From assembly GCF_030013595.1 (NCBI RefSeq), contig NZ_CP122768.1: 64,000 nucleotides of DNA; one strand, written 5' to 3'. Within the stretch, counting starts at the first letter, position 1. Each line of letters opens with the position of its first letter. Positions 22,301 through 25,300 of the stretch are shown here, piece after piece. Below the pieces are notes generated by a model. That model was not told the DNA's origin. It worked only from the letters and a program-made list of their open reading frames with translations, and searched no databases. Origin of the DNA: Escherichia coli. GTDB taxonomy: Bacteria > Pseudomonadota > Gammaproteobacteria > Enterobacterales > Enterobacteriaceae. The translations under genes were made by a program, and so were the position numbers.

Positions 22301-25300
22301 GGGGGACACCGTTGCCGTAATTATCCTTCACCTCAATATACAGACTGGTTGTCTCGCCTGCGGAGACTGTATCAAAAAGTGCATGTAGCAAAGTGAGATG
22401 TGCCGTAGACGCATCAGCATTGACATTAATTGATGTGCTAAGCGTGGAGTTACCATTTTCCAGACTGGCCTCAACGGTATCCGGTCTCGCTCCTGATTCT
22501 ATCGAGGAGCGGGTATTGGTATAAGTGACGGTTGCCTTACCCTGTTCGTTCGTTACGGCTTGGCCGCCATTCGTCATTTCGGCAGAGTTTGTTCGGCTGG
22601 TGAAGTTCACAGTCACACCTTTCACCGGAAAGCCATTATTATCAACGACTGTGGCGGTAATGACGCTGCCGGTGCTGTTCTGCGGGGTACCGGCGATTAT
22701 GCTGTCTGGGACAGGCGTCAACTCGATAATTTTTGCCGCCGCTGTGTCGCCAATAAAATGCACAGTTTTGTTGTCGCTGGCACCATTATTAGCCAGTGAT
22801 GCAGTGACCGCCTGCTCACCAAAGGCAACGCCTGCGAGAGTGGCCTGCGCGATGCCAGACTCATTGGTATTACTCACTCCCGGGGTCAGGGTGAGTCCTG
22901 AAGAGGCTGAGCTGAATGTTACCGGAAGATTGTTCACCTCATTGTCGAACTGATCTTTAACCGTTGCAGTTAGCGTTGCGTTATCGACGCCATTACCTGT
23001 GATCTCATCTTTTGACATCTGCAGGACAACCTGAGCCGAGGTTTTGTCCGCCACAAACGTTACCGGCTGCGAATCACTGGTATTGTTATTACCCAGCGTT
23101 GCGGTAACCGTATGTGTGCCCGCTTTTTTGCCTTTGAGGGTGACATGCGCTTCCCCATTGGCCTGAGTGATGGCAATACCGTTATTTTCAAGGGTAAAGT
23201 TTGCCGCCACGTCCTGTGGCATGGTGAAGTTCACCGTTATTCCCGCCACCGGATGATTCGACGGATCTTTCACCGTCGCCGTCAGCTGCACGCTGTCACT
23301 GTTATTCGTCACCACCTGTTGAGCAGGGGTATTCAGCGTGACTAGCGCGTTGCTGGCATCGGGCGCAATATTGACTGTCTTCGTATCGTTGTTGCCGTTA
23401 GGCAGTGTGGCTTCGGCTGTATGAACACCCAAGACCGTGCCCTTAAGGGTAACTTCAGCAACACCACTGTCGTTAGTATTGCTTTTGCTCTGACTAAGTT
23501 GAGTATCTGCCGGGTTGGTACTGAAGGTGACCGGTAGATCTTTTACTACGTTATCAAAAGGATCTTTCACTGTTGCTGTCAGCGTCGTCTCATCCACGCC
23601 ATTCCCAATGATTTCCGCTTTCGATGTTTGGAGGACGACAATCGCGTTGTCCTTATCCGCCACGAATGTGACTGGCTGCGCATCGCTGGCATTATTGTTA
23701 CCCAGCGTTGCGGTAACCGTATGCGTGCCCGCTTTTTTACCTTTGAGCGTGACATGCGCTTCCCCATTGGCCTGGGTAATGGCAATGCCGTTATTTTCAA
23801 GGATAAAGTTTGCTGCCACGTCCTGTGGCATGGTGAAGTTCACCGTTATTCCCGCTACCGGATGATTCGACGGATCTTTCACCGTCGCCGTCAGCTGCAC
23901 GCTGTCACTGTTATTCGTCACCACCTGTTGAGCAGGGATATTCAGCGTGACCTGCGCGTTGCTGGCGTCGGGCGCAATATTGACTGTCTTCGTATCTCTA
24001 TTGCCGTTAAGCAGTATGGCTTCGGCTGTATGAACACCCAAAACCGTGCCCTTAAGGGTAACTTCAGCAATACCGTTCTCATTAGTATTACGCGTGTTCA
24101 GACTCAGTTGCGTGTCTGCGGGGGAGGTGCGGAAGACTACTGACAGATTTTTAACCACGTTATCAAAAGGATCTTTTACTGTTGCTGTCAGCGTCGTCTC
24201 ATCCACGCCATTCCCAATGATTTCCGCTTTCGATGTTTGCAGAACGACAACTGCGCTGTCTTTATCCGCCACAAACGTCATTGGCTGTGTATCGCTGACA
24301 TTGCTGTTAGCCAGACGAGCCGTGATCATATGCGTGCCCGCTAACGTGCCGGTCAGGGAGGCGATTGCAACCCCGTTACTATCCGTCATGCCTTTTCCGC
24401 CGTTGCTAATCGAGAACCGACTTGCGACGTCGTTTGGCACAGAGAAGGTGATTTCTTTATCTTTTAGTGGGTTGCCATTTTTATCCTGCAAGGTTGCAGT
24501 CATATGTAGCGGAGCTGTGTTGGTGACGGTGATATCACCTGAAGGCACACTGAGGGTCAGGGCAGCAGTACTTTGATCACCGATAAAATTCACCTGTTGA
24601 TTAGCCTGGGAACCAGAGCTCACAGAGGCCGTAACCGTATAATCACCATTTTTCAAACTGGTCAGCGTAGCTGTGGCGATCCCGTCGTGGCTATTCACTT
24701 CGGTTTGGCTCAGTTTCGCTGCTGCTGAATTAACATTGAAGGTGACCTTGACGTCATTGAGCAGGTTGCCTTTTGCATCCCGGACTGTCGCGGTCATTGT
24801 GGCGCTGTCATTGCCGTCAGCGACCACTTCATTTTTCGACTTCTGCAGATCAACCTGTGCGGTACTTGAGTCACCGACAAAACTGACGATTAACGTTTGT
24901 TTCACGCCATTTTCAAGGGTGACTTCAACCGTGTTGTCTTCCTGCTTACTACTTTTCAGATCAAAAGTCGCCAGACCATTAACATCCGTTTTTACGGTGT
25001 TTTGATTGTTGAAGGAAGTTGCCGATCCGCTTAATACCGCAAATGTGACGGTATGATCATTGATTGGGTTGCTTCCTTCATCAGCGACATTGACCGAGAC
25101 GGTGTTTGCTGCATTCTCATTGGCGAGCACACCATTATTGCTGGCAGATAATGTCGCAATTTTCGCTGACTGCGGGTTGGCGTCGATGATAAATCCAGCG
25201 GTATGCAAATCTTCATTCCAGTTTTGCATTAACAGCTTCGCAGTAAGCCCACTGCCTTTGGTATAGGCGGTATAGGTTGCCTTATAGACGCCATCTGCGG

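What the first reader, a model, noticed from the sequence alone, without database searches (positions are those of the whole stretch)
23040..24260. Recent tandem duplication of a 609-bp (two Big-domain) unit inside yeeJ
Two adjacent 203-codon units are nearly identical at nucleotide level (gcggtaaccgtatg[t/c]gtgcc recurs at 23101 and 23710), while flanking Big domains are far more diverged. Antisense shadow ORFs in the two copies are also near-identical (MCARFFAFEGDMRFPIGL... and MRARFFTFERDMRFPIGL...). Such repeats are substrates for RecA-mediated expansion or contraction, which would change adhesin stalk length between strains and can cause assembly collapse.
Basis: seen in the sequence. Interest (0 to 1): 0.35.

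Follow-up and report, generated by a model that had tools for sequence, protein, structure and literature searches.

The report
Copy-variable two-domain repeat in yeeJ adhesin
The E. coli surface adhesin gene yeeJ carries two tandem copies of an old 609-bp, two-Ig-domain unit; unequal recombination has left other strains with one or three copies, an ordinary and largely known way of varying adhesin length.

Summary
The repeat is real. Window 23044-23652 and 23653-24261 are two tandem 609-bp units, each encoding two Big_1 Ig-like domains, in the stalk of the inverse autotransporter YeeJ. They are 89.5% identical in DNA and 89% in protein; every other Big-domain pair is 60% or less.

It is not a recent duplication. 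Each unit is closer to its counterpart in other strains (94-98%) than to its neighbour (88-90%). Synonymous divergence reaches 0.56 or more in two "anchor" blocks. Two other tracts are homogenised, with no fixed differences and 12 shared polymorphisms.

Among 5,426 complete E. coli genomes, at least 48 carry one unit and at least 29 carry three. Their hybrid units are the reciprocal products expected of unequal crossing-over, at several independent breakpoints.

The K-12 "short" allele is a 906-bp in-frame deletion that fuses two domains into a chimera.

The window carries the published long (UMN026-type) variant, here inactivated by a private 1-nt frameshift.

The two length variants and the "Periscope Protein" concept are already published. 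The 1/2/3-unit series and mapped breakpoints are a modest addition.

The parts
19395..27376 (-). yeeJ, long (UMN026-type, +906 bp) allele of the inverse autotransporter adhesin; 7982 nt here against 7983 nt in intact alleles, so it is frameshifted
   Evidence: ORFs 26294..27451 and 19395..26294. IAT_beta, 16 Big_1 stretches and Invasin_D3. 91-99% identity to K-12 yeeJ with a 906-nt gap in K-12. Same neighbours as in K-12: shiA, GT9 gene, tRNA-Asn, mtfA. Intact alleles are 7983 nt.
23653..24261 (-). Repeat unit 1 (N-proximal, next to domain X): domains A1 (23964-24263) and B1 (23652-23966)
23044..23652 (-). Repeat unit 2 (C-proximal, next to domain A3): domains A2 (23355-23654) and B2 (23043-23357)
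23089..23406 (-). Exchange tract I of unit 2 (unit positions 45-362; partner 23698-24015 in unit 1). It is 94.7% identical between units, with 0 fixed differences and 12 shared polymorphisms; the longest perfect run is 81 nt
23548..23652 (-). Exchange tract II of unit 2 (unit positions 504-608; partner 24157-24261). It is 93.3% identical, with 1 fixed difference; it contains a 62-nt perfect run
23407..23547 (-). Anchor block in the centre of domain A of unit 2 (unit positions 363-503; partner 24016-24156). It is 78.7% identical, with 24 fixed differences; dS for the overlapping centre of domain A (unit codons 36-82, about unit positions 363-503) is 0.56
23044..23088 (-). Anchor block at the C-terminal end of domain B of unit 2 (unit positions 0-44; partner 23653-23697). 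It is 77.8% identical, with 8 fixed differences; in the last 16 codons of B, 9 of 10 synonymous sites differ
23263..23285 (-). C-side endpoint of the 906-bp segment missing from K-12: a homeologous patch encoding LTATVKDP in B2
24169..24191 (-). N-side endpoint of the 906-bp segment missing from K-12: the same motif in A1. The K-12 junction lies within GTGAAAGATCC
26304..26307 (-). G4 run (C4 on the coding strand) where all other genomes have five bases; this 1-nt deletion splits yeeJ into two ORFs

Best explanation
The feature is a two-copy tandem array of a 609-bp unit in the extracellular stalk of the type Ve (inverse) autotransporter adhesin YeeJ. Each unit encodes two unlike Ig-like domains, A and B, so the local domain order is X-A1-B1-A2-B2-A3. 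The duplication is old: it predates the divergence of the E. coli alleles sampled. The two units still exchange sequence across two tracts of about 318 and 105 nt. Two short blocks, the centre of A and the C-terminal end of B, have stayed unit-specific. Misaligned homologous recombination within the exchange tracts removes or adds a whole unit (203 aa, two Ig domains). This produces one-, two- and three-unit alleles in the population and so changes the length of the stalk that carries the C-terminal lectin-like head. The window carries the common two-unit form, which is the published UMN026-type long variant. The K-12 short form arose differently. It is an in-frame deletion between the shared LTATVKDP-coding patch of an A domain and that of a downstream B domain, which leaves one chimeric A/B domain. 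Shown here: the repeat anatomy, the allele series, the hybrid structures and the exchange signature. Inferred: the recombination pathway (RecA-dependent for unit gain or loss, short-homology slippage for the K-12 deletion) and any effect of stalk length on fitness. In this window the gene is frameshifted, so the repeat probably has no present phenotype in this strain.
For: Repeat anatomy. Age: positional counterparts in other strains are 94-98% identical, neighbours 88-90%. dS is 0.32 overall, 0.56 in the centre of A and 0.16 in the exchange tract, and 9 of 10 synonymous sites differ at the end of B. Exchange: there are 33 fixed differences, all in unit positions 0-44 and 363-503 plus position 608. 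Positions 45-362 have none, but do have 12 polymorphisms shared by both units. Strain GF4-3 has a two-unit allele with the type-2 A centre in both units. Copy number: intact CDS lengths are 7374 nt (O157:H7 TR01), 7983 nt (O157:H7 RIMD 0509939, CB6886) and 8592 nt (G6/7). At least 48 genomes show a one-unit span of 1892 nt and at least 29 a three-unit span of 3110 nt. Mechanism: all four one-unit alleles typed read type-2 then type-1. All four middle units of three-unit alleles read type-1 then type-2. These are the reciprocal products of unequal crossing-over. Expansion breakpoints fall at unit positions 17-28, 44-363 and 503-608; contraction breakpoints at 363-418 and 524-533. Perfect runs of 81 and 62 nt exceed the roughly 25-30 bp generally needed for RecA-dependent recombination (established knowledge). 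K-12: the 906-nt gap, the junction within GTGAAAGATCC and the chimeric domain DRAVVVLQTSKAEIIGNGVDETTLTATVKD|PSNHPVAG... are shown. The C-terminal half of A and the N-terminal part of B do not exist in K-12, so the long form cannot be made from the short one by duplication. Literature: two variants differing by 906 bp, equal to three Big domains (PMC5595812).
Against: No outgroup was found, so polarity and age rest on within-species comparison and dS alone. Only 13 alleles were typed in detail, including the K-12 and RM12761 deletion forms. The class counts are lower bounds from ranked lists, and the marker-block counts could not be resolved into exact classes. Some one- or three-unit records could be assembly errors. 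In TR01 the flank on the N-terminal side differs by 2.3% from the O157 reference, while the other flank is identical. That contraction may therefore have come with imported DNA rather than from sister-strand exchange. The published comparison found no functional difference between the long and short variants in biofilm assays (PMC5595812), so a length-dependent phenotype is unproven.
Confidence: 0.85

Rival explanations
1. One reading: a recent duplication specific to this strain or lineage, whose copies have barely diverged.
For: Sub-segments are 97-100% identical: 23210-23330 against 23819-23939, and 23570-23630 against 24179-24239.
Against: The same two-unit arrangement, with the same unit-specific differences, occurs in roughly 1,100 complete genomes of varied background. 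Positional counterparts in other strains are more alike than neighbours within a strain. There are 64 mismatches, and dS is 0.32 overall and 0.56 or more in the anchor blocks.
Confidence: 0.03
2. An old duplication with no exchange between units: the highly similar tracts are conserved by purifying selection on the protein, and the length variants elsewhere arose by unrelated deletions or insertions.
For: dN/dS is low throughout (0.12-0.28), so the domains are under purifying selection.
Against: The contrast lies at synonymous sites (dS 0.16 against 0.56 or saturation), which selection on the protein does not explain. Twelve polymorphisms are shared between the units in the tract that has no fixed differences. 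Length changes are exactly plus or minus 609 nt, with in-register hybrid units.
Confidence: 0.05
3. The copy-number variants in other genomes are assembly artefacts (collapse or over-expansion of the repeat), so the true population state is only K-12-type or two-unit.
For: Repeats of about 600 bp are a known cause of assembly problems. Many database proteins for this region are fragments from short contigs.
Against: The units differ at about 10% of sites, so they are resolvable. Identical three-unit alleles occur in independent assemblies (G1/2, G6/7, G8, ES5; also NCTC9038). Identical one-unit alleles occur in a dozen assemblies. The variants are in-frame intact CDSs, and their hybrid units have several different but internally consistent breakpoints.
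Confidence: 0.04
4. The two-unit array in the window itself is an assembly artefact.
For: None found.
Against: The region is 99.96% identical to strain HCP5S3_I2 (one mismatch in 2501 nt), and the arrangement is shared by about 1,100 genomes.
Confidence: 0.01

Closest known systems
YeeJ length variants MG1655 versus UMN026 (Martinez-Gil et al. 2017, Sci Rep 7:11326; PMC5595812)
   Same: It is the same gene and locus. The window allele carries the extra 906 bp (three Big domains) that defines the UMN026-type long variant. [quoted passage not shown]
   Different: The paper describes only two variants, found among 38 genes. It does not define the 609-bp A-B unit, the one- and three-unit alleles, the exchange and anchor structure, or the chimeric domain at the K-12 junction. 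The 906-bp difference is 1.5 units and is not a step of the copy-number series.
Periscope Proteins (Whelan et al. 2021, PNAS 118:e2101349118, PMC8201768; review PMC9704523)
   Same: It is a single-chain surface protein whose stalk contains long tandem repeats. These are high in DNA identity (89% aa over 203 residues) and vary in number between strains. The proposed mechanism is homologous recombination. The class explicitly includes inverse autotransporters with Big/Invasin_D3 repeats.
   Different: The range is very small (1-3 units within a stalk of 14-18 Big domains, counting from the 16 Big_1 stretches of the two-unit allele), and identity is lower than in the extreme examples. Most of the stalk is non-repetitive. 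YeeJ is not named in the main text of either paper. No length-dependent phenotype has been shown.
Near-identical Ig repeats in Yersinia ruckeri invasin-like molecule YrIlm (Wrobel et al. 2018, cited in PMC6714894)
   Same: It is an inverse autotransporter whose Big domains are almost identical to one another, with the attendant assembly problems.
   Different: Known to me only through the citation in PMC6714894 and not examined here. There the repeat is a long run of single domains, whereas this one is two copies of a two-domain unit.
Alternating two-module repeats such as G5-E in SasG/Aap (established knowledge; cited in PMC9704523)
   Same: The repeating unit consists of two unlike modules. 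Neighbouring domains therefore stay dissimilar (A against B is 40-42% aa), while the DNA repeat is long and similar.
   Different: The fold, the organism and the anchoring are different. The analogy is my inference and was not tested.

Membership tests
Inverse autotransporter (type Ve) adhesin YeeJ | N-terminal inverse-autotransporter beta-barrel (Pfam IAT_beta) | tested here: met
   IAT_beta scores E = 8.8e-89 on the upstream ORF, and its last 58 positions lie on the downstream ORF.
Inverse autotransporter (type Ve) adhesin YeeJ | Passenger made of an array of Big_1 / Invasin_D3 Ig-like domains | tested here: met
   16 Big_1 stretches (E = 1.4e-262) and 17 Invasin_D3 stretches; domain map.
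Inverse autotransporter (type Ve) adhesin YeeJ | Periplasmic LysM domain before the barrel (PMC5595812) | tested here: inconclusive
   No LysM family was reported at E <= 0.01 for residues 1-360. The N-terminus is nevertheless about 97-99% identical in DNA to K-12 yeeJ, where the domain was shown experimentally.
Inverse autotransporter (type Ve) adhesin YeeJ | C-terminal lectin-like head | tested here: inconclusive
   Only a sub-threshold Invasin_D4 hit at 2111-2168 (24.1 bits against a cut-off of 27).
Inverse autotransporter (type Ve) adhesin YeeJ | Orthologous position and sequence relative to K-12 yeeJ | tested here: met
   The gene order is the same: shiA, GT9 gene, yeeJ, tRNA-Asn, mtfA. 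Identity is 91-99% in 300-nt bins.
Inverse autotransporter (type Ve) adhesin YeeJ | Intact reading frame | tested here: not met
   A 1-nt deletion at 26304-26307 splits the gene. It is a member by descent, but a pseudogene as sequenced.
UMN026-type long YeeJ variant | Presence of the 906-bp fragment that is absent from MG1655 | tested here: met
   There is a single 906-nt gap in K-12 opposite window 23272-24177. BLAST pieces overlap by 23 nt at the junction.
Periscope Proteins | Tandem protein repeats longer than 50 residues with at least 80% identity (operational criterion in PMC8201768) | tested here: met
   203-aa units, 181/203 = 89.2% identical.
Periscope Proteins | Repeat number varies among related strains | tested here: met
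   One, two and three units occur in intact CDSs. At least 48 one-unit and at least 29 three-unit genomes were listed. A one-unit allele occurs within O157:H7, which otherwise has two.
Periscope Proteins | Cell-surface anchoring, with the repeat region forming a rod-like stalk | not testable with these tools
   Surface exposure of K-12 and UMN026 YeeJ is reported in PMC5595812. The rod geometry of this segment was not modelled or measured.
Periscope Proteins | Length variation alters surface interactions | not testable with these tools
   The only published test (long against short variant, biofilm and adhesion assays) found no difference (PMC5595812).

The most novel reading that the evidence does not exclude
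YeeJ is a small but genuine Periscope-type adhesin with an organised repeat. A two-domain A-B unit keeps neighbouring Ig domains dissimilar, which may guard against misfolding. Two recombination-proficient tracts allow repeated gain and loss of about two Ig domains of stalk. Two unit-specific anchor blocks are kept distinct by selection. The length classes (chimeric K-12 form, one, two and three units) are adaptive, for example by matching the depth of O-antigen or capsule. On this reading the reference K-12 protein used in display technology is a derived deletion form with a chimeric domain.
Probability: 0.2. Interest if true: 0.4.

Novelty: new member of a known kind. Interest (0 to 1): 0.25.

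Why it matters
There are three practical consequences.

1. yeeJ alleles should be typed by unit number (chimeric, 1, 2 or 3), not just as "long" or "short". Short-read pipelines, GWAS and adhesiome surveys that map to K-12 will mis-handle this segment.
2. K-12 YeeJ is used as a surface-display scaffold. It is a derived form with a fused A/B domain, which shows that in-register Ig-domain chimeras are tolerated during secretion.
3. The locus is a clean natural example of partial concerted evolution inside a gene, with mapped crossover points. It could serve as a model for measuring recombination between 5-10% diverged repeats.

Biologically the result is expected for this class of adhesin, and no phenotype is attached to it yet.

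Tried and rejected
- **Tandem Repeats Finder** found nothing relevant, because its longest period is 500.
- **Outgroup searches failed.** A peptide-pattern scan of 100,044 species-representative genomes with the X-A-B-A-B-A3 segment matched 18 stretches, none confirmed. A degenerate DNA pattern for the barrel motif WYETPDNLFF hit only an unrelated Bacillota MAG. No non-E. coli ortholog was obtained, so polarity rests on internal evidence.
- **Protein-database search was uninformative.** The search with the full 2660-aa protein failed. The search with the 610-aa segment returned only fragments and pseudogene pieces from E. coli and Shigella, which were useless for a length distribution.
- **Exact class counts could not be derived.** I tried to get them from place counts and from type-specific 101-nt marker blocks. 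IS-disrupted alleles, partial deletions (O145:H28) and converted two-unit alleles (GF4-3) confound the arithmetic, so only lower bounds are reported.
- **Partial-coverage hits were not copy variants.** Hits H17, H39 and H66, first suspected as such, are IS insertions.
- **Antisense ORFs rejected as genes.** They have no family hits, and their similarity follows from the repeat.
- **Structure prediction not run.** The tool returns no coordinates, so stalk length could not be measured.
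Full report
**Observation.**
The sequence at 22900-24500 contains the quoted 20-mer at 23101 and 23710 and the two quoted antisense peptides.

I compared 19395-27451 with itself at every offset from 30 to 4000. The best 150-nt identity is 98% at offset 609 and 70% or less at every other offset. The repeat finder reports the same pair at spacing 609. Tandem Repeats Finder misses it only because its period limit is 500.

The gene on the minus strand is yeeJ. It has an IAT_beta barrel, 16 Big_1 stretches and Invasin_D3. It has the same neighbours as in K-12 and is 91-99% identical to K-12 yeeJ.

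A domain map shows that each 609-bp unit is 203 codons and two Ig-like domains. I call these A and B, so the local order is X-A1-B1-A2-B2-A3.

| Domain pair | nt identity | aa identity |
|---|---|---|
| A1 / A2 | 86% | 83% |
| B1 / B2 | 93% | 95% |
| Any other pair among the 16 Big domains | 60% or less | 54% or less |

(All.) The observation therefore stands. The one correction is that the units are 89.5% identical in DNA (64 mismatches) and 89.2% in protein, which is not "nearly identical".

**Already-known context.**
Martinez-Gil et al. 2017 (PMC5595812) described two yeeJ variants. MG1655 and UMN026 differ by a 906-bp fragment that encodes three Big domains and is "made up of a repeated section".

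Aligning the window with K-12 gives exactly one 906-nt gap, so the window carries the long variant. Intact long alleles are 7983 nt. The window's copy is 7982 nt because a run of five G is four at 26304-26307. This splits the gene into ORFs 26294..27451 and 19395..26294. None of 2,892 complete genomes with this region shares that deletion. It is either a private mutation or a homopolymer error.

**The duplication is not recent.**
I compared four two-unit alleles: the window, O157:H7 RIMD 0509939, CB6886 and UC4224. Unit 1 of one strain is 95-98% identical to unit 1 of the others, and unit 2 is 94-96% identical to unit 2 of the others. Unit 1 against unit 2 is 88-91%, within or between strains; one search repeats this with 24 units.

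Synonymous divergence between the window's two units:

| Region | dS |
|---|---|
| Whole unit | 0.32 |
| Centre of domain A | 0.56 |
| Last 16 codons of domain B | saturated (9 of 10 synonymous sites differ) |
| Long middle tract | 0.16 |

The duplication is therefore older than the diversification of these alleles.

**Partial concerted evolution.**
Among the four two-unit alleles there are 33 fixed differences between unit 1 and unit 2. All lie in unit positions 0-44 (8), 363-503 (24) and 608 (1).

Positions 45-362 have no fixed difference but 12 polymorphisms shared by both units. Positions 504-607 have no fixed difference (the one at 608 is the unit's last base) and two shared polymorphisms. 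The contrast is at synonymous sites, so it is not explained by selection on the protein.

Strain GF4-3 has a two-unit allele in which both units carry the type-2 centre of A, and its units are 95% identical. The units therefore exchange sequence in two tracts, while two blocks remain unit-specific.

A search with the 609-bp unit against 5,426 complete E. coli genomes found it in 2,910, of which 1,272 hold a full unit. It also turned up records with one or three places.

| Strain | Units | CDS length |
|---|---|---|
| AHM21C2872I | 1 (X-A-B-A3) | intact, 2465 aa |
| O157:H7 TR01 | 1 | 7374 nt = 7983 - 609 |
| G6/7 | 3 | 8592 nt = 7983 + 609 |

Class-specific queries listed at least 29 genomes with a three-unit span of 3110 nt. 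These are 95.3-100% identical to G6/7 and include PCN033, NCTC9038 and O166:H15 strains. They also listed at least 48 genomes with a one-unit span of 1892 nt. No four-unit span was seen.

Type-specific 101-nt markers for the centre of A occur in 1,229 genomes (type 1; 8 of them have two) and 1,128 genomes (type 2; 58 have two). This puts the two-unit class at roughly 1,100 genomes and the K-12-type class at roughly 1,640. Exact class sizes could not be derived.

**Mechanism.**

- All four one-unit alleles read type-2 at the A3 side and then type-1 at the X side.
  - AHM and E47 switch at unit positions 363-418.
  - A10 switches at 503-608.
  - TR01 switches at 524-533.
- The middle unit of all four three-unit alleles reads the reverse, type-1 then type-2.
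  - VCSW7 switches at 17-28.
  - G6/7 and PCN033 switch at 44-363.
  - N3 switches at 503-608.

These are the two reciprocal products of an unequal crossover between unit 1 and unit 2. They imply at least three independent expansions and at least two independent contractions.

Both types of A centre occur among one-unit alleles, so at least one of those forms must derive from a two-unit allele. The hybrid pattern in all four suggests the same for the rest. That is inference.

The window allele offers perfect runs of 81 and 62 nt between its units. This is enough for RecA-dependent exchange by established knowledge, but the pathway itself was not tested.

In TR01 one flank is identical to the O157 reference and the other differs by 2.3%. 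That event may therefore have involved imported DNA.

**The K-12 allele.**
K-12 joins window 23263-23285 (in B2) to 24169-24191 (in A1). The junction lies inside GTGAAAGATCC, within a 24-nt homeologous patch that encodes LTATVKDP in both domain types.

The product is one chimeric domain, with the N-terminal third of A and the C-terminal two thirds of B. The rest of A and the start of B are absent from K-12. The long form therefore cannot be derived from the short one by duplication, and the short form is the derived state.

Whether the deletion removed 906 bp from a two-unit allele or 297 bp from a one-unit allele cannot be told. The short homology suggests slippage or illegitimate recombination rather than RecA-dependent exchange. 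That is inference.

**Comparison with known systems.**
The anatomy and behaviour fit the Periscope Protein concept. [quoted passage not shown] It explicitly includes inverse autotransporters.

YeeJ meets the two sequence criteria tested here, but it is a minimal case, with 1-3 units inside a mostly non-repetitive stalk. It is not named in the main text of those papers.

The only functional comparison of the long and short variants found no difference in biofilm or adhesion assays. The A-B unit keeps neighbouring domains at 40-42% aa identity, which resembles alternating-module repeats elsewhere. That point is my inference.

**What led nowhere.**
Two scans of species-representative genomes found no ortholog outside E. 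coli. The protein-database search failed on the full-length protein and returned only fragments for the 610-aa segment. The suspected partial variants H17, H39 and H66 are IS insertions. The antisense ORFs have no family hits.

**Verdict.**
"Recent" is wrong. The predicted expansion and contraction are real and recurrent.

The phenomenon belongs to a known kind, and the main length polymorphism is already published. What is added here is the unit-level allele series, the exchange and anchor structure, the mapped breakpoints and the derived chimeric nature of the K-12 allele. Interest is modest.

Noticed in passing
window 26304-26307: yeeJ is split by a 1-nt deletion in a run of five G (C on the coding strand). 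None of 2,892 complete E. coli genomes with this region shares it, so it is either a private mutation or a homopolymer sequencing error.
   Followed up: yes
window 25260-25268 and 26424; L001 (NZ_CM149870.1): The closest genome, pig isolate HCP5S3_I2, has the five-G run intact. It instead carries a 9-nt deletion and a C-to-T change that coincides with PGAP's internal stop at codon 318. Close relatives have therefore lost yeeJ by different lesions.
   Followed up: partly
L003, L004, L010, L019; rows H16, H147-148, H207-215: yeeJ is often interrupted by IS elements (IS3 family/IS1203, ISEc35, ISEc52), including within or near the repeat in many O157:H7 genomes. Together with published premature stops (PMC10786849), this suggests recurrent loss of the gene.
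   Followed up: partly
L016 (O145:H28 RM12761) relative to L005 4554-5402: An out-of-register deletion of about 850 bp runs from domain A3 into B1. It removes unit 2 and frameshifts the gene. This is a further, non-homologous deletion class at the same place.
   Followed up: partly
window 18081-19133 (+): The glycosyltransferase family 9 (heptosyltransferase-like) gene convergent with yeeJ is intact here, but is a pseudogene with an internal stop in K-12. The Pfam hit is weak (30 bits). Any link to the adhesin is unknown.
   Followed up: no
window about 28862: After tRNA-Ser the window runs straight into core chromosome (dgcQ, dcm, hprS, ompC region). HCP5S3_I2 has about 46 kb of lambdoid prophage inserted there. 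The window also differs from that genome before 5487, where the relative has an IS3-family element.
   Followed up: partly
L011 (O157:H7 TR01): The flank on the C-terminal side of the single unit is identical to O157:H7 RIMD 0509939 (0/1243), but the flank on the N-terminal side differs at 28/1239 sites. A recombination tract boundary therefore coincides with the contraction.
   Followed up: partly
L018 (GF4-3) units at about 982-2199: This is a two-unit allele in which the centre of domain A is type 2 in both units, and the units are 95% identical. It arose either by gene conversion or by contraction from a three-unit allele.
   Followed up: partly
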